DNA of 64,000 bases from a virus. Taxonomy: Duplodnaviria; Heunggongvirae; Uroviricota; Caudoviricetes. The number at the start of each line of letters is the position of its first letter. The first letter of the stretch is position 1. The stretch lies in the IMG/VR virus record IMGVR_UViG_3300017987_005500; one strand, given 5' to 3'. The translations under genes and the position numbers were made by a program. The notes under the pieces are model-generated. The model ran no database searches, had not been told where the DNA came from, and was given only the letters and a program-made list of their open reading frames with translations. Of the stretch, positions 3,450 to 48,521 are shown piece by piece.

Positions 3450-3977
3450 ATGGCATCAAAGTACACAAAAGAGAAACTGTCCAAACTTAACAATGTTGAA
3501 CTCCGAGAAATTTGCAAGAAAAAGAAAATTCCTGGAATGTCAAAGAAACGTAAAGATGTTATGGTTGACGCAATACTTCTTGCTCATGGCGGAACGAAAG
3601 CAAATGCCAAATCTTCCAAGAAAGCTAAGACTCTCGGAATTGGAAAAGATGGCGAACCAACTAAAAATGCTTCCGAAGCAAAGAAAGATGACAAACTTCA
3701 AGCTGCAACATTTACTCTTAGCAGTGTTTTGACAAAACCATCTGCAAAATATGGTGATCGAACAACCACGACAATTCGCGTATCATCCGGCGCAGCTGCA
3801 GGCGACTTCCCTGTAACAGGAAGAACAGTATCTTCTGTTAAATCATTCCTCTCTGAAGTTCTCAATATTTCCAAAATGTCTTCTCCAATCGTCAATGGAA
3901 AACAGGTTGAAGATAATTATGTAATCAAACAAGGTGATGAACTTGAGTTCTTGAAACCAGCAGGTCAGAAAGGGTAA
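3450..3977 (+). CDS. Ubiquitin-like (beta-grasp) protein with N-terminal Rho-N/HeH-like domain
   Basis: N-term LSKLNNVELREICKKKKIPGMSKKRKDVMVDAIL; C-term IVNGKQVEDNYVIKQGDELEFLKPAGQKG ends in Gly like ThiS/MoaD/PRTRC-C. Confidence 0.8.
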   Translation: MASKYTKEKLSKLNNVELREICKKKKIPGMSKKRKDVMVDAILLAHGGTKANAKSSKKAKTLGIGKDGEPTKNASEAKKDDKLQAATFTLSSVLTKPSAKYGDRTTTTIRVSSGAAAGDFPVTGRTVSSVKSFLSEVLNISKMSSPIVNGKQVEDNYVIKQGDELEFLKPAGQKG

Positions 3978-9156: not shown

Positions 9157-12100
9157 AAGTGATTAACCCAAACTTTGTGCTTGATGAAGAAAATAATATT
9201 TTCAGGATTCGAGAAAATGAATTTGGGTCACTTGAGTCCACAATTCGGGAGATGCTAAAACCGGCCGAAGCGCTTGGATTTAGTGTCCCCGAGTTCGGGA
9301 TTCGTGATTCAAGGTTTTCGTCACGAGATCTTGCAAGAACAGTAAAACAGAAATTAGTTATTAAATTAGCTAAGGGAGAACATGTTTTAGATCTCTCAAT
9401 GGATATTCCAAAATTGATTGATGGAAATTATATCATCATAAATGGAAAACAGAAGATCCCTCAATTTCAATTATTTGATGTTCCAATTGTAACTCGTGGT
9501 AAAAATATAAAAATAAGAACAAATGTAGCAACTGTCGTAGTTGTCCCTAAGAAAGAAGAACCATATATTCATATTACTTTCTTAGGAAAAATGGTTCCTT
9601 TATCATTAATGTTATTTGCATATTTTGGAATTGAAGAAGTAAATAGAAAATTTAACTTAAGTTCTCAAACACCAGCTGACACAATTCCAACAAATATGTA
9701 TGATAAATTGATATCTGATTTAACAATGTTCTATGCTGAATCAGATGGTTATACTCAAGATGACTTTATCAAAGAAGTGGGAAGAATTTATTCTCAGTAT
9801 AACTCAAAATCAAAAGGTGAAGATGTTATGTACGCCTTAGATTTGATAATGGAAACTGATACAATATCAAAGAAACTCTTTATCACAGATACTATATTGG
9901 ATGAAGTTGTTTATGCAATTGAGCACCCTGACGATTTTGATGACACAGACTTTATCAATAAGAGAATAAGATGTTATGAATATATTCTTTTATCAAAAAT
10001 ATCCAAATATATATTTGACTTATGTATGTCAAATAGGACTGCGAGACAACCGAAATTTAATGTAAATTCAACAAAGATATTATCAGAGTGTAATGTATCT
10101 GACATTGTCCAATTTGATTTTTCAATAAATCCAGTTGAAGAACTTACAAGACTTTCAAGAACAAGTCTCATAGGTCCGGGTGGTTTTAAAAGAGAAAATG
10201 TTCCAGAGCATCTTAGAGATATTTCAAATAGTATGTTTGGCAGAGTTTGCTCAGTTGATACTCCTGATAGAGATAACTGTGGAATATTACAAAACTTAGT
10301 ACCAAATGTTAAACTTGATGAAAATTTGAAATTCACAGATGAAATATTAGAGAAGCAACCCATTTCAATTCCAGTTGCAATGGTACCTTTCTCAGAGCAT
10401 GATGATCAAACCAGACTTCAAATGGCATCATCTCAAATGAGACAATCTGTATTAACAAAAAGTTTTGATTCACCTGATGTATATTCTGGGAGTGAATGGT
10501 TATATTCAAAAGAAACCCAGTTTTTGAAAGCAGCAAAGAAAGATGGTGAAGTTGTTTATACAGATGATAATTATATAATTGTTGTCTATGATGATAATGA
10601 AGTTGATATAATCAATGTTTCTTATAGAAAGATATATGTAGGAAATATGGATTGGATGAAAATATATGTGAAGCAAGGAGATAAAGTTAAGAAAAATGAT
10701 ATTCTTGCTGAGAGTATGTTTATGAATGATGGTAAAATCAACTTTGGTCGAAAGTTGTTAACTGCTGTAATTCCTTATTTTGGATATAACTATGAGGACG
10801 GAATTGTTATATCTGATAGAATAGTTGAGGATGATGTTTTCACTTCAATGCATTATGTTGATTTATCATTTACAATTCCACCAAATAAAGTTTTATTAAG
10901 TTTATCTAATGATGGTGAATATAAACCATTACCTGAAGTTAAAGATCCTGGAGGAGGAAAACCTATAATTCATGATAGGATAGGAGTTGGAAAACCTTAT
11001 GCTATAATGAAAGATATTAATTCAGGTATACATTGTTATAGTGTATTTGATGAAGAAATTAAACTGACCGCTAAAAAACAAGTGTTAATCTCAGAGGTTA
11101 ATATTTACCCGAACACTTGGAACACTGAAATGCCTCAATATGACAAATGGGTTAAAGATAAAATTGAAAGTCAAAAGAAAAAGCAAAAAGACTTTCTTAA
11201 AATGTTAAAAGATTATATACCAAAATCTCAAATGAGTAAAATTATAAGAGAGGAAGGACTTAATAAATTCTCTCAAGTTGGAAAATATAGATATAAGAGA
11301 GAAGAGATAAATGGTATTCATATTGAGATGTATGGGATTTTTGAAAGAAAAATAAATCCTGGTGATAAGATTGCAAATCGACATGGTAATAAAGGTGTTA
11401 TTTCAAAGATAATGCCAAGAGAAAAAATGCCAAAACTTCCTGATGGGAGACACGTGGATATTTGTATCAACCCACTTGGTATTATAAGCAGGATGAATAT
11501 AGGACAAATATTTGAGTTGCATCTCTCAATGTCCGTAAATGATTTAAGACAAAAGATGTTAGAGTCATTGAAAAATGGCGGAAAAAGAGAAGACCTTATC
11601 AATTATTTCCTTGGTTATATCAAATGCATTGACAATACTGAGAATAATTGGTATACTACACAAATGGTGGAGAAGCTAAAAGATATTGAAATTGACGAAG
11701 ATTTCATCAATAACATATTTGTAATTCAACCTCCATTTGAATCAGTGACATTAGAGATGCTTGATCAGGCAATGCAATATACAAATACGGACTACGATTA
11801 TAAATTACTTGATCCAATGTCAAAAAGTGAAATATTCAATGATATCGCAGTCGGGTATATATATTTCTTTAAAATGGTCCATATTGCTGAAAACAGATTA
11901 GCAGCAAGAGGAATTGGATCTTACTCAAGAAAGACTTTGCAACCTCTTGGGGGAAGAAGGAATAAAGGTGGGCAGAGATCTGGAGAAATGGAAATGGCAT
12001 GTTTAATAGGTCATGACGCTGCCACAAACTTAAATGAATTTACGACTACGAAGTCAGACTGCATTGATAGGAAAAATAGATATATCAGAGCAGAGATTGA

Positions 12101-41116: not shown

Positions 41117-41977
41117 TTATACAATAGAAATAACTTTTTGTATAATCTCATTTATATTAGGAATATTATCTATAAACCTAATAACTTTCCAACCTTCATT
41201 TTCAATTAATAATTGTCTTTTCTTATCATATTGTTTATCTTGATGCCAATAACTATCATCATATTCAATTGCTATCATTTCACTTGGAATTGCAATATCA
41301 ATTGAAAAATTTAAACATGGATATTCTAGTTTAGTATCATTAAAATAATTAGAAATTATTTTAAATAATTTAAGTTGAGGTTTGGAAATTTTAGTAACTC
41401 CAGCTCTAGCAGCTAAAAATCCTCCATTTAACATATAATCTCTTTGGTTGTTTCTAAATTCACTTGTCTTTTGATAACAAGGTGTTCCATATTTCACCAT
41501 ACATGTATTTCGAGCCTTTAATAAACTTTCTTCACTATGCTTTTTTCCATAAAATGGATTTTTATCTCCTATTAATTTTTTCCCTCTCTTAGATAAATTA
41601 CTCTTTAATTTATTTGCTTTATCAAATCCAAATTGTTGTTCATATGTCTTCCCTTTATTAGGATGAACAGAATTTGGTTGATTCAACCAATGTTTATCTC
41701 CAAGTTTATTTTTTGAAGACTTGTCTTTGAACTTACTAGAATTACACATACATTTAACAGAGCAATATTTATGATGACCAACTACAAGATTAACCCATTT
41801 TGTATATTGGTTGCATCCTTTATAGTTTCCATAATTTAAACAAATATCATCACCATCATTCTTTATATATTTATCATAATATTCTTTTGATTTAATATTA
41901 TGAATTCTTAAATGACTTGTTAATGCTTTTAAACTTTTGAATTCTTTTCTGCAAATCTTGCATGTAATTATTTTCAT
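41117..41977 (-). CDS. Homing-type endonuclease (C2H2 finger + NUMOD3 + DUF559/Vsr-like nuclease)
   Basis: CKIC..HLRIH, NPFYGKKHSEES, IDIAI...IAIEYDDSYWH...GWKVIRF; start MKIIT after RBS ggag. Confidence 0.8.
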   Translation of the reverse strand: MKIITCKICRKEFKSLKALTSHLRIHNIKSKEYYDKYIKNDGDDICLNYGNYKGCNQYTKWVNLVVGHHKYCSVKCMCNSSKFKDKSSKNKLGDKHWLNQPNSVHPNKGKTYEQQFGFDKANKLKSNLSKRGKKLIGDKNPFYGKKHSEESLLKARNTCMVKYGTPCYQKTSEFRNNQRDYMLNGGFLAARAGVTKISKPQLKLFKIISNYFNDTKLEYPCLNFSIDIAIPSEMIAIEYDDSYWHQDKQYDKKRQLLIENEGWKVIRFIDNIPNINEIIQKVISIV

Positions 41978-42065
41978 TTTAATTTCTCCCGTTAGAAATA
42001 TTAAAAATGGGTAAGAGAAATAAAACGGGTATTTCTCAAGGTGGCCAGACCCTGTCCCCATTATT

Positions 42066-42761
42066 TTAAAAATATAAGTACCATACGAAGATAAGTTGCC
42101 TATTTGTATTCTTCACAATGGTTGGAAATGTGACTCTACTAAATAAATGAAACGGTCCTGAACTTCCTCCTGCTGTACTCGGAGATGTGAAAAGACCCGC
42201 TTCACTTAATTGATTTCCATTAGCATCCAAAGACCCAAGCGTAATTACGACTCTTGCAAGTAACCATGAATTTGAATTCTCAGGATCTTGCTCAAAAGTT
42301 ATATTGTCGAAGGGATGCTTATAATAATACCCATCATGAAAATCTGCACAAGTGGCGTCCGTCGCATTAATTCCTACTGCATCATCTAAATCTGTGTCTT
42401 CATTAGTGGGAGATACTGGATCAAAAGGATCCCCAGGAAGTGTTCCGCCAACTCCAACTCCAAACCAACTTATAAATTCATCATGTGTCGGAGTTATATT
42501 TCCATTTGCGGTTTTGGTTGCTCTAACTGCTAACCATTCTCTTCCTAAATATACCACTAAATTATGTTTACCAAGGAGCTTCATTTTATCATCATCAGTT
42601 GCTTCATATATTTCGACAAATCCTTGGGGTGTTTTTCCGGAAGGACTAGGTTCTCCGTTCAAAGGAACATGATCCATAAGACAATTGTCCCCATAACGTT
42701 CTTCAACGCTGACAACGAGATCCTTATCTCCCTGACAAAGTTCTTTTGTATTTTCATCCAT
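42066..42761 (-). CDS. Tail fibre/baseplate-attachment protein
   Basis: HNLVVYLG, FGVGVG, ANGNQLSEAGLF, LFSRVTFPTIVK...FVWYLYF. Confidence 0.65.
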   Translation of the reverse strand: MDENTKELCQGDKDLVVSVEERYGDNCLMDHVPLNGEPSPSGKTPQGFVEIYEATDDDKMKLLGKHNLVVYLGREWLAVRATKTANGNITPTHDEFISWFGVGVGGTLPGDPFDPVSPTNEDTDLDDAVGINATDATCADFHDGYYYKHPFDNITFEQDPENSNSWLLARVVITLGSLDANGNQLSEAGLFTSPSTAGGSSGPFHLFSRVTFPTIVKNTNRQLIFVWYLYF

Positions 42762-42802
42762 TGGTTAAACATCCTTATTACGGTAGATTATTATGTTTAT
42801 TA

Positions 42803-42810
42803 TTTGTTCT
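42803..42810 (-). promoter_or_regulatory. Putative late-promoter motif AGAACAAA
   Basis: 41 nt upstream of the 42761 start. Confidence 0.55.
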
Positions 42811-42857
42811 TAAAAAAAACTGAAAACGGTAAATATTTTTAATATAAAAAATATTAG

Positions 42858-42870
42858 TATATATATTAAT
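42858..42870 (+). promoter_or_regulatory. Putative early-promoter motif TATATATATTAAT upstream of the RAMP gene
   Basis: Identical core to motifs at 20936, 48497, 48955, 50065, 53908. Confidence 0.6.
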
Positions 42871-42985
42871 TATTAGTATAAGTATTATTATATAGTTTAT
42901 TTTTATTTATTTATTTTTTAAAAGTCTAAACTTATCAAAGCACATAGGTGCTAATAGGATTATTTGGACGAGAAAGGAGTCAATC

Positions 42986-43861
42986 GTGGCAAAAGCAGCA
43001 GATGAAAAGAAAACAGCAGCATCAAAGACAGCACCGAAACGTAAAACAAAAAGTGAACGTGAAAAAGAACTTGACAAAATGGTCAGGGGATTTAAACCTT
43101 ACTATGTTGATGTTACCGGTGAATACATTTCAACAATTTCGGGTTCCCGCCCTGAGGATACTGCTAAACTTATCAGTAAACCCTCAAAGACAGTCAATGA
43201 AGAGCTTCATAAAATTATGAAAGCTCAGGTTGAACTCTGCCTGCAAAAGGGAGATATTGAAGGAGCAACTGCGGCAGTAGATGCTTTCCAGAACTCTGGA
43301 AATGATTTTTCAAATCCCCTTCATGTTTTTCAACGGGATGAACAATGTGGCAGAAGACCTTTTCAAGGAGCTTATATGTTCTTTGGTGCCTTCCGAGATA
43401 CTATAAAGATGGCATATCCCAAAGACTTTAATATCTATATTAAGGTTAAAAATACATCCGGACCAAGTATAAAGCACTTAAGAAAGTCTGTGCGAGTTGC
43501 CCCGGATCATATTTTCCTCATGAAAGATGAGGATAATTACATGGAAGAAAGTGATATTGTTATTGAAAATCAGCACCCTGTTCCTCCAGACGTTAAGGGT
43601 TTCTCTCGTTTTGAGATTCTCCCAAAAGGAGCTATTGTGAAATACCGACTTGAAGTTCACAGCTGTACTCAATTCAATGCACTTGCTGATCTCGAGCTTG
43701 TTAAGAAAGTGATTATCCAAAGTGCCCTTCACGGAATTGGCTCACGACGAGCTTCCGGTTATGGCCAATGGAAAGTTAAAAAGATTGAATTCCATGAGAT
43801 GGCAGCAATGGAGGGAAGCGATGGACAAAAAGAGGATGAAGACGTCAGCAAGGCTGCGTAA
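42986..43861 (+). CDS. Stand-alone RAMP-superfamily (Cas7/Csm3-like) RNA-binding protein
   Basis: N-strand YVDVTGEYISTISG; RPFQGAYMFFGAFRD (cf. PxIPGSSxKGxxR); RFEILPKGAIVKYRL; C-terminal Gly-rich loop GIGSRRASGYGQWKV; GTG start after aaggag. Confidence 0.8.
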   Translation: MAKAADEKKTAASKTAPKRKTKSEREKELDKMVRGFKPYYVDVTGEYISTISGSRPEDTAKLISKPSKTVNEELHKIMKAQVELCLQKGDIEGATAAVDAFQNSGNDFSNPLHVFQRDEQCGRRPFQGAYMFFGAFRDTIKMAYPKDFNIYIKVKNTSGPSIKHLRKSVRVAPDHIFLMKDEDNYMEESDIVIENQHPVPPDVKGFSRFEILPKGAIVKYRLEVHSCTQFNALADLELVKKVIIQSALHGIGSRRASGYGQWKVKKIEFHEMAAMEGSDGQKEDEDVSKAA

Positions 43862-43886
43862 AACAGTAGCGAGAGGAGGAAATATT

Positions 43887-44102
43887 ATGGCAAAAGGAAT
43901 GGCCGATATGATGGTCGAAACTGCGGAGAAACTTCTTGATGGAGAGGTTCCTTTAAAGACTGGTGAAGTCGTTGCCAAAGTAGGTAATATACATCAGCTT
44001 GAACGCAAAAGAGATCATGATGCTCACGATCGTGGATTAAATGATGAAAATCTTAAAGGTTTTCAAAAGATTTGTAAACAATCTACGAAAAAGAAAAGAT
44101 AG
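43887..44102 (+). CDS. Small hypothetical protein co-transcribed with the RAMP (71 aa)
   Basis: RBS gaggagg then ATG 43887 (MAKGMADMMVETAEKLL...STKKKR). Confidence 0.7.
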   Translation: MAKGMADMMVETAEKLLDGEVPLKTGEVVAKVGNIHQLERKRDHDAHDRGLNDENLKGFQKICKQSTKKKR

Positions 44103-44112
44103 CAAATGGATA

Positions 44113-44139
44113 ATGGGGCGAGTTATGAGATCGCCCCAT
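44113..44139 (+). other. GC-rich hairpin at the 5' boundary of the repeat array
   Basis: atggggcga-9 nt-tcgccccat perfect 9-bp stem, no U-tract. Confidence 0.7.
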
Positions 44140-44184
44140 CCATGGAATATAGTTATATTTATTCCTCTTTCATGGTTTTCTTTT

Positions 44185-47100
44185 ATATTTAATAGAATGC
44201 ATAATATATCGAATCCGATCCTATGACATTCTATGTTGTATAATAGAATCCGACGCAATCACATTTTATTCACTAAAATGGGTTGAAGTTTAACCCATTT
44301 GCAATGTGAGCTATGATGCAACCGAATGAAATCATATTAAATAATCTAATAATTTAATTTAATTTGGTTAAATATTTTGTTTTGGTGTAGAATGTTATTC
44401 CATATTATTAATTTTAAATTCCTTACGTTATGATATAATTCAATTTTATTTGATTCGATTTACATATGTAATATTATTTTATGGGACAGCATCCATTTCA
44501 GTTGGATAAAATTCGATATACTATAAAACTTAATTGATTAGCACGTAATTCAATATAATTCCATCCGATCCATTTTTAAAGCAATTCGACACAGTACGAT
44601 CCGGTCGAATAAGTTGTAATTCAATCATATGCATTATTTTATTTAATGCTGTGAAGTATAATTGAATAAAATGGTATTCATAATTCAATGCGATGATAAA
44701 GAATGCGGTCCTGTCTCATTGAGTCGAATAGAATGGAATTACCTTTTAACTTAAACTTATTTCAACATGAACATATTCAATGCGATATAATGCACAATAT
44801 TATCTCATCCTATTCAGTGCGAAACTATTGAATAAGTTCCTATCCAATGAAATTCACAATTAAATAATGTATGGTAGCTTGTTTTGCTATGCGATTATAT
44901 TTCATCCATAAGTTTTACAATGCCAATAAATAAAATATGCAGTAAAATAGGCATTGAGAGCTTTTGATTTTATGTCATTTTAATCAGTTAAATCGAATGT
45001 CATTCATAAAAGAATATTATTCGTTATCGTATGGTGTGATTCAATTTAATGCTATGTTATCAGATTCACAATAATATACAATGCAAAGATTTCCTAAGAG
45101 ATCCAATATAATTCCGTAAATCGTAAGATTCTTTGCGACTCATTTTAATTCGTTATGGCGCCGTTGAATAACATAATATTCTCTATTCTATTTTACCGGT
45201 TACGTTCCTATTTGGTAAAATGGTATTTTATTTGATTCAATGATATTTACTTTGTAATACAATGCAAATATGTTCAATACTATGCGTTGCTATGCGATCC
45301 TATTCATTATACATTCAATTTAATACAATATTTTATAATTGAATAAGGTCTTATAAACTTTTTAATCTTACCCGTTCCTATTTAATACCATTTAATTCTA
45401 TAAATTATTCAACTGGTTAGTATGGGGTATTATGGTTTGTAATTACGTAAAATTGTATACATACGTAATATTGATCACTGTATAATTGGGTATAATACAA
45501 TACAATCTATATTTCACTGAATTGACTTTTAACGTATCATGCAGTATTATACAATTATGTTCAATTAAATAATGTTTTATGTATTATGATATGGAATAAA
45601 GTAATGTAGAAAGAAATCCTATCTGATAGCATTTTATACAATCTATATTTGAATTATATCCATTATAATACAGTTCAATGCGATACAATATAATTAAATT
45701 TCATTAATGATTCAATGTTACCGGTTTCGATACAATTTGTTAAATTATTATAAATAATTTGATCAGATCGAATTTAATCAAGCATTTCTTCTTAATATCT
45801 GATTGAATGCTATTCAATATATGATGGATGCGACGCCATTCCTTTGAATATTATGAAATAGTATATTATTCATTATTTAATTAGGTATAACAACTTTCAA
45901 TTTTATATTATATCATTCGATAAAATGAACGTTTTAATTGAATCTATTTCTATACGAAGCCGTTCCATGCTATTTTATGCGATGTCATAGATCTTTTAAT
46001 TAGATGCTATGCATTTCCATTGATTGGTACCGAATTCTTTACATTTCATTCCAATTCTATCGAATAAATATCTTATATATTTTATGTTAACTTTTTACTA
46101 AATTTAACTAAATAAATAAATAAGGAATATAATAAAATTAACTAAAAAATAACAAACCTTATTTAATATGTTTTCCAATGCAGTTGAGTAAAATTCTATT
46201 CATGATTAGATATAATAATTTTATGTTTAATACAATATGGTCAAATGTCTTAAGATACAATTTTATTTAATAAATGATTCGATTAATTTGAATTAGGTTC
46301 GATCCATTTACATAGTATTGTATGGAATAAAATACATAATTTGATGGGTTAGGATGTGATAGCTTATGGTATTATTGAATACAATTTTATTAATAATTTC
46401 ATATGATAAAACTCCATATTATTCTATTCTGTCGGGTTACATTCGATCAAATGTATAAAATATTCGTAATTGGATTCTTTGGGATTTATTAAGTTTCGAT
46501 CCTTTTACATCTCATTCTATTTAATAAATCTTTAATATGACTCTATTTGATTAGATGGAGTTCATTAGCACCCTTTTTAATCTAATAAAATATACTTTAT
46601 TTTATATTACTGTATGAGTTTGGGTAATATGAAATCAACAAATAAGGAATATAATAAAATTAAAATAAAAATATCAAACCTTATTTATAATACCATCCTA
46701 AAAGATGTAATTTTATAACATTCTATTTAATAAATCTCTATTAGGATTGAATCTGATATCATGCAGTTGGATAAGTTCCAATAAAATTGTGTTTTATATA
46801 TCATAGAATATTATTCATTGATATCCGTTATCTTATAATCCTGTGTCATATAATATCATAAACCATTAATACTTTATTATACTGTATTATATCTTATCCA
46901 ATTATATGAAATCTCATCCACATGGTATAAAATGTGATAGCTTATGGTATTATTGGATACAATTTCATTGATCATTGGATACTTTTGGATTCATTCCGAT
47001 GTCTTATGATCCTATTCAATGTTATTTATATTTTAATTACATCACATTGATTATGTTCCGATCCGTTAGAATTAAATTAAATGCGATTCATAAATAATAT

Positions 47101-47480
47101 GTGGTCATTTAGGATAATGTTTAAACAAATTAAATAATATATCATATACGTTTTAAACAACATTATATATTTCTGTATAAAATAAGGTCATATTTAATCC
47201 ATAATCCAATGCTATTTGATTTAATACAATAAAACACCATCATGTTCTATGGAATAATATTCTATTCACAATTTTAAATTGTATGTAATTCCATAATACG
47301 AAATCCAATTCCATAAAATACAATTCATAATTCTATAAAATTTTAATTATTATTATCCCATATTATGACATGACATCTCATCTTATTCATAATAATATTC
47401 TGTATCATTCCATGCTATTCAATATAATGATATAGCATTTACAATTTTAAAACCTATACTTTGATAATAAATGAGATTCA
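44185..47480 (+). repeat. 3.3-kb non-coding array of 5-nt-periodic units (NNATN)n in blocks delimited mostly by CA; candidate guide-RNA array
   Basis: No ORF of 60 aa or more in any frame from 44259 to 47567; e.g. 44681 taatt caatg cgatg ataaa gaatg cggtc ctgtc tcatt gagtc gaata gaatg gaatt; same register at 47328-47439. Confidence 0.85.
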
Positions 47481-47503
47481 ATGGGGTTAGATTTACCTAC
47501 CGG

Positions 47504-47542
47504 AAAAAGAGCTCCCACGATATTTATGGGAGCTCTTTTTTT
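47504..47542. terminator. Bidirectional intrinsic terminator closing the array
   Basis: aaaaagagctccca-loop-tgggagctcttttttt. Confidence 0.85.
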
Positions 47543-47567
47543 GTACACTTGTTATGCTAAAGATTAA

Positions 47568-48404
47568 TTATTGAATAAATGTTCCACAATTTTGACAAAA
47601 CTTTACATTAGACTTTGACTTAGTGCCACAAGATGGACAAGTTATTTTTGTTTTAACTGTAATTGGAGCTTCAACTTTAACTCCTGTGGACATTGTCCCT
47701 TTAAGTCTTATGATAATTGTCTGAGCTTCATCAGTCTCTCCAAAACTCACAGTGCGAAATCCTTGATGAGTTTCAGCACCCTTTACAGTAATTCCTTCAT
47801 CAAGAGCAGGTCCGTCATTTAAAGAATCTGTGACAACGCTATTATCACTTGATGCAACGGACTGAGAAGAATAAAGACAAGACCTTGGAGCTTCTCTTAG
47901 AGCGTCTCCTGTCCCTGCCATTTGTCCAGTAACTCCTAATCCTTTTGAAAATCCTCTTGGTCTTGGAGTCCCTGAACTTCCATAAATAGTATTATCATCA
48001 TTCCAATGATGATAAACATTATCATGGATGATTGTTCTTCTAAGGATTTCAGGTTTTGCTTTCTCGTAGGCAAATTCAACTCTTATAAAACCATCGTCTA
48101 CATTATCACCTCTGTGATCTGAGATTTCTTGAGTCTTTTGAATAAACCTGAAAGCATTACGGACTTCATTGTTTTCCATAAAACCTTTTAATTCAATTTC
48201 GGAATTTGGATTTACAATGAGGGAATGTCCATCAAGAACATCCTTGCTATCAATACTTATACTGACAGATGCTCTTCTTGACTCGAGATTTTTTAAAAGA
48301 ATTGAATAATCGGAACCGAAAGGGAGAGTGACAAGATCGTCTTGCTCTCTGAGGACTTTACCATTGACTTTTACGACTGCGATAAACTTTTGATTATACA
48401 CCAT
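47568..48404 (-). CDS. Conserved hypothetical protein with C-terminal Zn ribbon
   Basis: YSILLKNLESRRASVSISIDSKDV; CPSC...CQNC. Confidence 0.7.
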   Translation of the reverse strand: MVYNQKFIAVVKVNGKVLREQDDLVTLPFGSDYSILLKNLESRRASVSISIDSKDVLDGHSLIVNPNSEIELKGFMENNEVRNAFRFIQKTQEISDHRGDNVDDGFIRVEFAYEKAKPEILRRTIIHDNVYHHWNDDNTIYGSSGTPRPRGFSKGLGVTGQMAGTGDALREAPRSCLYSSQSVASSDNSVVTDSLNDGPALDEGITVKGAETHQGFRTVSFGETDEAQTIIIRLKGTMSTGVKVEAPITVKTKITCPSCGTKSKSNVKFCQNCGTFIQ

Positions 48405-48496
48405 TATTTCTCCTTACAGATCACAGACTAAGATCTGAAATTTTTAAAGTCTGTAGTTAAATAGCATAACAAGTTTTATTTTATATTTGTTCTTGT

Positions 48497-48521
48497 TATA
48501 TATATTAATTACTAGGTGGGA
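48497..48521 (+). promoter_or_regulatory. Early-type motif TATATATATTAAT plus downstream AGGTGGGA
   Basis: Repeated at 48955-48980 and 53908-53933; back-to-back with AGAACAAA (minus, 48486-48493). Confidence 0.6.

What the first reader, a model, noticed from the sequence alone, without database searches (positions are those of the whole stretch)
42858..47542. Stand-alone Cas7-like RAMP gene coupled to a 3.3-kb pentamer-periodic non-coding array: candidate phage RNA-guided system without CRISPR
Seen: one + strand unit of early-type promoter motif (42858), RAMP gene (42986-43861; GIGSRRASGYG G-rich loop and other Cas7/Csm3-type motifs), 71-aa ORF, hairpin, 3.3 kb of ORF-free 5-nt-periodic DNA, and a strong terminator (47504). 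No cas1, cas5, cas6, cas8 or cas10 and no fixed-repeat CRISPR occur in the window, and the rest of the genome is densely coding. Established: Cas7-family RAMPs polymerise along guide RNA with a fixed nucleotide step per subunit. Inference: each pentamer is one subunit footprint, the constant triad (mostly AAT/TAT/GAT, sometimes GGT/AGT) is the protein handle, and the variable dinucleotide carries targeting information. From memory, and not verifiable here, this resembles recently described phage RAMP plus GGY-NN repeat (VIPR-type) systems, but with an AT-shifted triad and a very large array. Plausible roles are silencing competing phages, host defence genes or the phage's own genes.
Basis: partly seen in the sequence, partly recalled or inferred. 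Interest (0 to 1): 0.96.

Follow-up and report, generated by a model that had tools for sequence, protein, structure and literature searches.

The report
Jumbo-phage VIPR system with A/U-handle guides
An uncultured giant phage carries a removable 4.7-kb cassette with a lone Cas7-like protein, a small partner gene and about 50 short guide RNAs written in five-base units; it is a divergent, unannotated branch of the CRISPR-related VIPR systems first described in 2026, and its guides all read antisense to protein-coding sequence.

Summary
Window 44140-47492 is ORF-free DNA with strong 5-nt periodicity and none at 3. It resolves into 48 abutting tracts (median 11 pentamers, 516 in all) of the form N-[A>G]-T-N-N, preceded by a 291-aa protein with a confident Cas7/RAMP fold and a 71-aa ORF, and closed by a strong terminator.

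A 99%-identical phage fragment lacks exactly 42814-47534, so the set is one accessory cassette. All 10 relatives of the protein whose DNA could be read sit beside period-5 DNA with the same N-R-T register, and all have a candidate small partner gene (clear in several, weak in others).

The variable dinucleotides match the reverse complement of codon positions 1-2 (r 0.93; other frames 0.11-0.59). The same polarity holds in 6/6 relatives. It is not seen in the phiSUSP1 control.

This is a VIPR-type system (bioRxiv 10.64898/2026.04.26.720920), but a divergent clade:
- N-R-U handle instead of GGY
- no 3' tails, with 2-nt phase-break junctions instead
- uniform antisense polarity
- found only in metagenomes

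Targets were not identified. One guide spells an Flp-prepilin-like motif, which is a lead only. This scan has already noted many VIPR variants on other DNA. Verdict: new variant of a known kind.

The parts
42814..47534 (+). Whole accessory cassette (leader, RAMP gene, small partner gene, hairpin, guide array, terminator)
   Evidence: The near-identical phage fragment G001/L003 aligns to 42060-42813 and 47535-48521 (97-99% identity) with only 66 bp between them, holding a different terminator hairpin.
42814..42985 (+). AT-rich leader with 15-19-nt tandem repeats (42852-42915), a putative promoter region, and the GAAAGGAG ribosome-binding site before GTG 42986
   Evidence: Sequence, TRF, weak sigma-70-like matches. 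Promoter function is not shown; the phage has its own RNA polymerases according to earlier notes.
42986..43861 (+). Vipr-like stand-alone RAMP (Cas7-fold) protein of 291 aa: Lys-rich N-tail 1-36, helical insertion ~59-103, helix-1 GAYMFFGAFRD (128-138), G-loop GIGSRRASGYG (250-260)
   Evidence: Pfam RAMPs E 0.009, sub-threshold. 46 relatives found by exhaustive HMMER. AF2 with the alignment gave pLDDT 87.8. Foldseek and VIA top hits are Cmr4, Csm3, type VII Cas7, gRAMP and Csf2. Colinear but weak profile match to type II Vipr.
43887..44102 (+). Small partner gene of 71 aa (vap-like accessory, function unknown)
   Evidence: Candidate small ORFs were found by inspection in the 8 first loci plus L040 and L041, lying before or after the array. 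The match is significant in L005 (E 2e-8); L006-L010 give E 0.025-0.07; L040 shows the shared core; L004 and L011 have no significant match and the L041 assignment is tentative. The shared G..P..TA.EIH..GH..VM..(Y/F)AE core is degenerate in the window's own copy. No Pfam family. Unrelated to phiSUSP1 vap1.
44106..44143 (+). GC-rich hairpin between the partner gene and the array, with no U-tract: a possible 5' boundary or processing element
   Evidence: dG -20.3 kcal/mol, z -3.9, 0 of 200 shuffles fold as well.
44140..47492 (+). Guide array: 48 in-phase tracts (median 11 pentamers, IQR 10-12; 516 pentamers) of N-[A .74/G .11]-T(.93)-N-N. Tracts abut through 2-nt 'A-Y' or 7-nt junctions. Non-periodic islands lie at 44740-74, 44909-62, 45508-34, 46066-46167, 46592-46685, 47091-47176 and 47439-69.
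   Evidence: Autocorrelation, phase HMM, junction statistics with 27 of 40 short gaps equal to 2 mod 5, summary statistics, NN usage against codons, no Rfam family.
45248..45311 (+). One guide whose 10 canonical NN dinucleotides read, antisense with the wobble skipped, (D/E)GAAAV(D/E)YAV: an Flp/Tad prepilin-like motif (lead only)
   Evidence: Exact pattern hits: 15 in metagenomes, of which at least 8 (3 distinct sequences) are Flp-like N-termini in the predicted frame; Pfam Flp_Fap E 0.0013, sub-threshold. 9 hits in reference genomes, 3 of them Flp-like and 6 unrelated GC-rich contexts. The 12-NN version gave no hit.
46110..46165 (+). Non-periodic island, copy 1 (second copy 46632-46687, 89% identical): part of a segmental duplication, possibly an internal promoter
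   Evidence: the repeat finder families D1-D3. A sigma-70-like match lies at 46104-46133, which is not evidence of function.
47501..47543 (.). Strong bidirectional intrinsic-terminator-like hairpin closing the array and the convergent gene 47568-48404
   Evidence: dG -24.7, z -7.5. Most of it lies inside the cassette; the relative has a different hairpin at this spot.

Best explanation
This is a VIPR-type RNA-guided system carried as an accessory cassette by a jumbo phage.

Proposed mechanism:
1. The + strand is transcribed from the AT-rich leader (and perhaps from internal islands) through the RAMP gene, the 71-aa partner gene and the 3.3-kb array, up to the terminator.
2. The array RNA yields about 50 guides of 8-14 pentamers each.
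3. By analogy with the published Vipr filament, one RAMP protomer binds each pentamer and sequesters the constant N-R-U triad. The invariant G-loop Arg255 plays the part of SUSP1 R179 on the pyrimidine. The Asp that reads G1 is absent, which matches the free first base.
4. The protomer presents the two variable bases. The 2-nt 'A-Y' phase breaks between tracts stop filament propagation, and so define the guide ends in place of a structured 3' tail.
5. The presented dinucleotides pair with two of every three target bases, skipping the codon wobble position.
6. In this clade all guides have one polarity, antisense to coding sequence. They would therefore bind the non-template DNA strand, or the mRNA, of genes from low- or moderate-GC rivals, the host or the phage itself, and silence them.

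Shown here: the fold, the periodic array, its tract structure, gene-array-partner co-occurrence, the cassette indel, and the codon-derived and polar NN usage.

Inferred: transcription, processing, one protomer per pentamer, DNA versus RNA as the target, silencing, and the identity of the targets.
For: - Fold: pLDDT 87.8, pTM 0.80. The best structural matches are exclusively Cas7-family RAMPs, with Z up to 13.1.
- Published system with the same logic: Vipr plus vap plus pentamer vrRNAs, 9-16 repeats, the 1-nt skip rule, 'staggered' tail-less arrays, and alternative consensus repeats NNNGG, YNNNG and NNNNG.
- Positive control: phiSUSP1 Vipr carries the published contact residues and YNNGG tracts on the gene strand.
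- Colinear profile alignment to type II Vipr over 130 columns, covering a shared (F/Y)xxDxQxG motif, helix-1 and the G-loop (G-loop mapping).
- Family-wide linkage: period-5 DNA lies next to the gene, and only there, in 8 of 8 loci and then 2 more. Candidate small partner ORFs occur in the same loci; some are clearly related, others only weakly.
- The cassette is present or absent as one block between near-identical phages.
- NN usage against the reverse complement of codon positions 1-2: r 0.93. After removing marginals, r 0.84. 42 of 48 tracts favour antisense (binomial p 1e-7).
- The same polarity holds in 6 of 6 relatives, while phiSUSP1 shows both strands.
- GNRA hairpins in L011 read only on the gene strand.
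- In a duplicated guide, the handle's first base drifts (5 of 10 pentamers) while NN is mostly kept.
Against: - Sequence kinship to validated Vipr is statistically weak (hhalign E 0.003, probability 10%; a single sequence gives E 0.078). A separate origin from another Cas7 lineage is therefore not excluded.
- The handle has almost no G here (11% at position 2), unlike every published consensus.
- No conserved 3' tail or ribozyme was found.
- No target was found in the window or its relative for any skip length.
- Seven guide patterns gave nothing significant in IMG/VR.
- The one decoded motif also hits unrelated GC-rich contexts.
- There are no expression data.
- The C-richness of N5 could partly reflect protein preference rather than targets.
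Confidence: 0.78

Rival explanations
1. The components are the same, but the natural target is mRNA rather than double-stranded DNA. The guides are uniformly antisense because the RNP pairs with sense transcripts (2 paired, 1 skipped) and blocks translation or triggers cleavage, as type III/VII Cas7 effectors do.
For: There is a strong single polarity in the window (42 of 48 tracts; r 0.93 antisense against 0.31 sense) and in 6 of 6 relatives. The DNA-binding type II control shows both strands, and the paper reports targets on both strands and strand-independent silencing. The best structural matches are RNA-targeting Cas7s: Cmr4, Csm3, type VII and gRAMP.
Against: The polarity is equally explained by preferential binding to the non-template DNA strand, or by the unknown way guides are made. 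No catalytic residue was identified. The structural ranking among Cas7 types differs by only about 1-3 Z units. All characterised VIPRs bind DNA.
Confidence: 0.25
2. The cassette is a decaying or inactive relic: the array is real but no longer expressed or functional, kept only by chance in this phage lineage.
For: About 22% of pentamers lack the R-T handle. Several non-periodic islands and degenerate 7-nt junctions interrupt the array. A close relative does without the cassette.
Against: Both ORFs are intact and carry all family-invariant residues. T at handle position 3 is kept at 93% over 516 pentamers, and the NN usage still tracks codon usage at r 0.93, which neutral decay in a 25% GC region would erase. 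A strong terminator and a ribosome-binding site are in place.
Confidence: 0.07
3. The periodic region acts as DNA, not as RNA. It could be a phased array of A-T steps every half helical turn that serves as a protein-binding or bent-DNA element (origin, packaging or partition site), with the RAMP-like gene merely adjacent.
For: The AT core of the pentamer is palindromic, so periodicity alone does not name a strand. The region is the most AT-rich in the window.
Against: This does not explain why the two variable bases follow codon-position usage with one polarity, or why the same register flanks the RAMP gene in 10 of 10 relatives at 31-50% GC. It also fails to explain why tracts have guide-like lengths, and why L011 inserts GNRA hairpins that read on one strand only.
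Confidence: 0.03

Closest known systems
Type II VIPR of Escherichia phage (phi)SUSP1 and the Pseudomonas fulva prophage (bioRxiv 10.64898/2026.04.26.720920; cryo-EM 10.64898/2026.04.26.720927)
   Same: Both are phage-encoded. Both have a lone minimal RAMP with a G-loop, a small accessory gene, and guides on the gene strand made of 9-16 pentamers with a constant triad and a variable dinucleotide. The variable bases fit a '2 read, 1 skipped' code against coding sequence. There is no CRISPR array and there are no other cas genes.
   Different: The protein is 291 aa against 195 aa, with a Lys-rich N-tail and a helical insertion. Similarity is only at profile level (E 0.003). The handle is N-R-U (A-U here) instead of G-G-Y, and the G1-reading Asp and G2-stacking Trp of the G-loop are replaced (S253, R254). 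There is no 3' tail or pseudoknot. About 48 guides stand in one array against 4. Guides have uniform antisense polarity against both strands. The partner protein is unrelated to vap1.
VIPR systems with alternative repeats (YNNNG, NNNGG, NNNNG) and 'staggered' tail-less vrRNA arrays (same preprint, methods and figs. S17-S18 as described in the text)
   Same: In the register N-G-Y-N-N, the published YNNNG class has the same conserved positions (2 and 3) as this family. Relatives at 45-49% GC have G at position 2 in 32-59% of pentamers. Abutting guides without tails match the 'staggered' description.
   Different: Position 2 is a purine whose identity follows genome GC, and it is A in 74% of pentamers here. 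The junction is a 2-nt insertion (phase +2), whereas the paper describes a 1-nt overlap. The figures and locus tables of the paper are not held, so I could not check whether this clade is among its seven types. The 10 family members I looked up are absent from NCBI, the database the census used.
Cas7 backbone subunits of type III, VII and IV CRISPR effectors (Csm3, Cmr4, gRAMP, Csf2)
   Same: This is the best-matching fold (Z 11-13): RRM core, G-rich loop, and polymerisation along a guide with a fixed step.
   Different: There is no crRNA repeat handle, no Cas5, Cas6, Cas10 or Cas11 partners, and no CRISPR array. The step is 5 nt with three bases sequestered, rather than 6 nt with one base flipped.

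Membership tests
VIPR (Vipr + vap + vrRNA) | Stand-alone minimal RAMP protein (RRM core, glycine-rich loop, thumb) outside any CRISPR-Cas locus | tested here: met
   AF2 pLDDT 87.8. Cas7-family hits only, Z up to 13.1. G-loop GIGSRRASGYG. No CRISPR array or cas neighbours. The thumb was not examined residue by residue.
VIPR (Vipr + vap + vrRNA) | Sequence or profile kinship to experimentally validated Vipr proteins | tested here: inconclusive
   hhalign of the family profile against a 32-member type II Vipr profile: E 0.003, probability 10%, 130 colinear columns including helix-1 and the G-loop. tblastn against phage genomes found nothing. VIPR structures are not in the PDB copy searched.
VIPR (Vipr + vap + vrRNA) | Adjacent non-coding tandem pentamers with a conserved triad alternating with a hypervariable dinucleotide, on the gene strand | tested here: met
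   for the window; for 10 relatives. Strand support comes from the GNRA hairpins of L011.
VIPR (Vipr + vap + vrRNA) | Triad consensus GGY, or a published G-containing variant (NNNGG, YNNNG, NNNNG) | tested here: not met
   In the window, position 2 is A .74/G .11 and position 1 is unconstrained. Relatives have A or G at position 2 (G .23-.59), so the family handle is N-R-U, closest to YNNNG.
VIPR (Vipr + vap + vrRNA) | 9-16 repeats per vrRNA | tested here: met
   48 tracts, median 11, IQR 10-12. Tract ends are inferred from phase breaks, not from RNA ends.
VIPR (Vipr + vap + vrRNA) | Conserved structured 3' tail after each repeat tract (type II), or a ribozyme or staggered alternative | tested here: not met
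   Tracts abut through 2- or 7-nt junctions. No Rfam family, and so no hammerhead. This is compatible with the published 'staggered' architecture. Relative L011 does have a hairpin after each tract.
VIPR (Vipr + vap + vrRNA) | Accessory vap gene in the operon | tested here: inconclusive
   A small ORF (62-79 aa in the aligned set) lies beside the RAMP gene in every locus examined. It is clearly related in L005 and L040 and only weakly or tentatively related in the others. It has no Pfam family and no similarity to SUSP1 vap1.
VIPR (Vipr + vap + vrRNA) | Noncontiguous recognition: NN pairs, one target base skipped | tested here: inconclusive
   Indirect support: NN usage equals the reverse complement of codon positions 1-2 (r 0.93), and one guide gives exact matches to a conserved prepilin-like motif at skip 1. 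No verified natural target was found, and local scans with skips 0-3 did not differ.
VIPR (Vipr + vap + vrRNA) | vrRNA expression and co-purification with Vipr; programmable repression | not testable with these tools
   Needs sRNA-seq, pull-down and reporter assays.
CRISPR-Cas class 1 | CRISPR array of fixed repeats with unique spacers, plus Cas5, Cas6, a large subunit and adaptation genes | tested here: not met
   No such array by TRF or repeat search. Neighbouring genes are phage structural, homing-endonuclease and zinc-ribbon proteins. Not every ORF of the window was scanned.

The most novel reading that the evidence does not exclude
This metagenome-only clade may be a distinct VIPR type with three departures from the published systems.
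- Its protein reads an N-R-U handle.
- Its guides are delimited purely by 2-nt phase breaks, with no tail, ribozyme or Cas6-like step.
- Its guides are all antisense to coding sequence because the RNP acts on transcripts or on the transcription bubble.

That would make it an RNA- or R-loop-directed gapped-code silencer. A single jumbo phage would then deploy about 50 guides against host or rival genes, possibly including an Flp/Tad pilin gene.
Probability: 0.25. Interest if true: 0.78.

Novelty: new variant of a known kind. Interest (0 to 1): 0.6.

Why it matters
VIPR is months old, and its rules rest on two closely related type II systems. This clade adds four things.
- The constant triad can lose its guanines altogether: its second base follows genome GC, with matching changes in the G-loop. 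That helps define what the protein really reads.
- It offers a testable way of delimiting guides, by a break in the five-base phase rather than by a folded tail.
- Its guides have a strict antisense polarity that the published systems lack. This raises the question of whether some VIPRs act on RNA or on the transcription bubble.
- The codon-usage test of the variable dinucleotides is a target-free way to recognise such arrays and to infer both their reading rule and the kind of genome they aim at.

For annotation, neither the clade's RAMP protein nor its small partner gene is recognised by the curated family libraries searched here, and the members looked up are absent from NCBI.

Tried and rejected
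- A word-indexed protein search found only the protein itself, and tblastn against 50,697 phage genomes found nothing. Only the exhaustive HMMER search found relatives.
- A single-sequence AF2 model was useless (pLDDT 36.5).
- A sequence search of the PDB gave only noise.
- Self-targeting: no guide matches the window or G001 better than shuffled guides, with skips of 0-3.
- Public target scans:
  - Seven gapped patterns in IMG/VR gave no hit, or three chance-level hits that did not extend.
  - The 12-dinucleotide version of the Flp-like guide gave no hit in 185,579 reference genomes.
  - A guide resembling methyltransferase motif I by eye gave no hit.
- The small partner shows no Pfam, PHROG or PADLOC family and no likeness to vap1.
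- Rfam found no ribozyme or known RNA in the array.
- The sigma-70 promoter scan is uninformative in DNA this AT-rich.
- The window's own genome is not held, so the remaining roughly 100-240 kb of the phage could not be searched for targets.
- I considered and rejected coding DNA in another genetic code, because there is no period 3, and a DNA-level phased element (see rivals).

Full report
**What is in the sequence.** About 3.4 kb without any real ORF follows, up to a strong hairpin at 47501-47543, after which a convergent − strand gene ends at 47568. GC falls to 0.23-0.28 in this stretch.

**Periodicity.** Autocorrelation of 44185-47480 peaks at lag 5 (0.42 against 0.317 expected) and at its multiples. 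There is no peak at 3, and smaller peaks occur at lags equal to 2 mod 5. The signal is unique in the 64-kb window:

| Region | Period-5 excess | Range |
|---|---|---|
| Inside the array | +0.125 | min 0.071 |
| Rest of the window | −0.012 ± 0.026 | max 0.07 |

**Array anatomy.** A five-phase hidden Markov segmentation and summary counts give 48 in-phase tracts holding 516 pentamers, with a median of 11 per tract (IQR 10-12).
- The pentamer is N-[A .74, T .15, G .11]-[T .93]-N-N. Positions 1, 4 and 5 are close to maximal entropy.
- Tracts abut. Of 40 short junctions, 17 are a 2-nt insert (nearly always A-T or A-C) and 10 are 7 nt. In all, 27 of 40 shift the phase by +2, which explains the secondary autocorrelation peaks.
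- Seven non-periodic islands interrupt the array. Two of them (46110-46165 and 46632-46687) are 89% identical and belong to a segmental duplication.
- In the guide duplicated with them, five of ten pentamers differ at handle position 1 but only two differ in the NN bases.
- Rfam finds no ribozyme or known RNA in the array.

**The protein.** Pfam gives only a sub-threshold RAMPs match (E 0.009), and PADLOC gives sub-threshold G-loop matches to Cas7, Cmr6 and Cas6 models.
- A word-indexed search of 5.8 billion proteins found only the protein itself. An exhaustive HMMER search of 1.84 billion representatives found 46 relatives, 42 of them below 1e-10.
- With their alignment (A1), AlphaFold2 gives pLDDT 87.8 and pTM 0.80; the single-sequence model was useless.
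- Foldseek and VIA-align then return only Cas7-family RAMPs at the top: Cmr4, Csm3, gRAMP, Csf2 and type VII Cas7, with Z up to 13.1 (rmsd 3.4 Å, 159 residues).
- The family conserves GAFRD in helix-1, PSxKHLRK, HIF, QQP, V(K/R)GFxxYEV, and the G-loop G(L/I)GxRRxAGYGxW.
- No NCBIfam model captures the clade (1 of 39 members, weakly).
- The ten members I looked up occur only in ENA, Logan and JGI metagenomes, not in NCBI or UniRef.

**One unit, gained or lost as a block.** A phage fragment with 94-99% nucleotide identity (G001, locus L003) aligns to 42060-42813 and to 47535-48521. Only 66 bp lie between these, carrying a different terminator hairpin. The leader, both genes, the array and the terminator (42814-47534) are therefore one accessory cassette, inserted on the strand opposite to its neighbours.

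**Linkage across the family.** In eight homolog loci (L004-L011), period-5 DNA lies directly beside the RAMP gene and nowhere else, including across the 16.7 kb of L007. Two further loci (L040, L041) show the same.
- The register is always N-R-T-N-N on the gene strand.
- The purine follows genome GC: A .74-.83 at 31-32% GC, A about .5 and G about .33 at 45% GC, and G .59 at 49% GC.
- Every one of these loci has a candidate small partner ORF, before or after the array.
  - The match to the window's 71-aa protein is significant in L005 (E 2e-8).
  - It is weak in L006-L010 (E 0.025-0.07), and L004 and L011 show no significant match.
  - L040 has the shared G..P..TA.EIH..GH..VM..(Y/F)AE core; the L041 assignment is tentative.
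  - That core is degenerate in the window's own copy.
  - The partner has no known family and is unrelated to phiSUSP1 vap1.
- In L011, each tract is followed by a GCCC-GNRA-GGGN hairpin that reads as such only on the gene strand. This supports transcription of that strand.
- Relatives' arrays hold 64-145 pentamers, against 516 here.

**What the variable bases say.** The usage of the 16 N4N5 dinucleotides correlates with the reverse complement of codon positions 1-2 of this phage's own genes.

| Comparison | r |
|---|---|
| Antisense, codon positions 1-2 | 0.93 |
| Sense, codon positions 1-2 | 0.31 |
| All other frames and strands | 0.11-0.59 |
| Plain dinucleotide backgrounds | about 0.52 |

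- After removing the single-base marginals, the correlation is still 0.84.
- The ranking follows amino-acid usage: the D/E, N/K, I/M and F/L boxes are highest, and the C/W and R boxes lowest.
- Individually, 42 of 48 tracts favour the antisense reading (binomial p 1e-7).
- The usage fits low- and moderate-GC phage genes (r 0.79-0.94) and not GC-rich bacterial genes (r 0.15).
- In six of six relatives' arrays, antisense also beats sense (0.82, 0.65, 0.45, 0.54, 0.77, 0.18 against at most 0.18). The phiSUSP1 control shows both (0.46 antisense, 0.62 sense), as published.
- This is what a code that reads two bases and skips the wobble base would leave behind. It also adds a feature not reported for type II VIPR: a single polarity.

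**Comparison with VIPR.** Two 2026 preprints describe phage-encoded Vipr RAMPs with vap genes and with vrRNAs of 9-16 GGY/NN pentamers.
- One protomer binds each pentamer.
- The NN bases pair with dsDNA while every third target base is skipped.
- There are seven types, alternative repeats (NNNGG, YNNNG, NNNNG) and tail-less 'staggered' arrays.

As a positive control, I located the phiSUSP1 locus (KT454805, 28031-29061, − strand). The 195-aa protein carries H17, E71, M72, R138, C173, D177, W178 and R179 as published, though position 175 reads V rather than the published T. YNNGG tracts flank it on the gene strand.

A profile of 32 type II Viprs aligns colinearly with my family over 130 columns. 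These cover a shared (F/Y)xxDxQxG motif, helix-1 and the G-loop, but only at E 0.003 and probability 10%.

In that alignment the SUSP1 G-loop residues map as follows:

| SUSP1 residue | Published role | Residue here |
|---|---|---|
| D177 | reads G1 | S253 |
| W178 | stacks on G2 | R254 |
| R179 | holds the pyrimidine | R255 (invariant) |

This fits a handle whose first base is free, whose second is any purine and whose third is U. It remains an inference from a weak alignment.

**Targets.** No guide matches the window or G001 better than shuffled guides, for skips 0-3. Seven gapped patterns in IMG/VR gave nothing, or chance-level hits that did not extend.

The ten canonical dinucleotides of tract 45248-45311 decode to (D/E)GAAAV(D/E)YAV.
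- They gave 15 exact metagenome hits. At least 8 of these (3 distinct sequences) are N-termini of small hydrophobic proteins in the predicted antisense frame.
- One of those proteins hits Pfam Flp_Fap at E 0.0013, which is below the family cutoff.
- They gave 9 hits in reference genomes. Three are again Flp-like (two Planctomycetota and one Nitriliruptoraceae MAG), and six lie in unrelated Ala/Gly-rich contexts.
- All hits are in GC-rich DNA, and the 12-dinucleotide version finds nothing.

I treat an Flp/Tad pilin target as a lead only. The rest of the phage genome is not held.

**Verdict.**
- This is a VIPR-type system, but I cannot place it in a published type. It also fails the literal GGY (or G-containing) consensus and the 3'-tail feature.
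- I class it as a new variant of a known kind. Its distinctive features are the N-R-U handle, phase-break junctions, uniform antisense polarity, an unusually long array and a conserved small partner of unknown function.
- Earlier notes of this scan (unchecked AI leads) list 219 VIPR-type findings in at least 169 genomes.
  - These include other handle variants and another jumbo phage with 80-90 guides.
  - So neither a variant handle nor a large array is unique within the scan.
- Confidence that it is a VIPR-type RNA-guided system: 0.78.
- Whether it acts on DNA or RNA, and on what, is open.

Noticed in passing
window 41117-42061 (-): A homing-endonuclease-like gene (C2H2 zinc finger, NUMOD3, DUF559/REase C-terminus) lies two genes left of the cassette. 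The near-identical fragment G001 also differs in this stretch: the BLAST alignment breaks between window 41400 and 42060.
   Followed up: partly
window 46110-46403 and 46632-46981: There is a segmental duplication inside the array: one non-periodic island plus at least one guide, 83-89% identical. The duplicated guide keeps most NN bases while handle position 1 drifts, which suggests that arrays grow by duplication and divergence. How a 3-nt target period is rewritten into a 5-nt guide period is unexplained.
   Followed up: partly
L011:1232-1563 (+): In one relative, each pentamer tract is followed by a GCCC-GNRA-GGGN hairpin. There are six copies, 57-71 nt apart, readable on the gene strand only. 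This tail-bearing architecture sits within the same protein family as the tail-less arrays.
   Followed up: partly
L007:~9455-9470 and L010:~3675-3690: A conserved short element, 'ccgatgtaagc', lies between the end of the array and the ribosome-binding site of the small partner gene in two relatives.
   Followed up: no
window 47568-48404 (-): The flanking 278-aa protein has a C-terminal zinc ribbon (Pfam Zn_ribbon_3/DZR, sub-threshold) and no other family. The other flank, 42066-42761, matches PHROG virion structural protein families.
   Followed up: no
window 42852-42915: AT-rich 15-19-nt tandem repeats (TATTAGTATA...) lie in the cassette leader and are absent from the relative that lacks the cassette. 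They are a candidate promoter or regulatory element for one of the phage's own RNA polymerases.
   Followed up: no
contig of P0012 (no DNA available): One family member lies a few genes upstream of two TAGT-family (PF20691) genes and a radical-SAM gene, with no obvious uncalled gap after the RAMP gene. The small ORFs called there may be spurious calls over an array.
   Followed up: no
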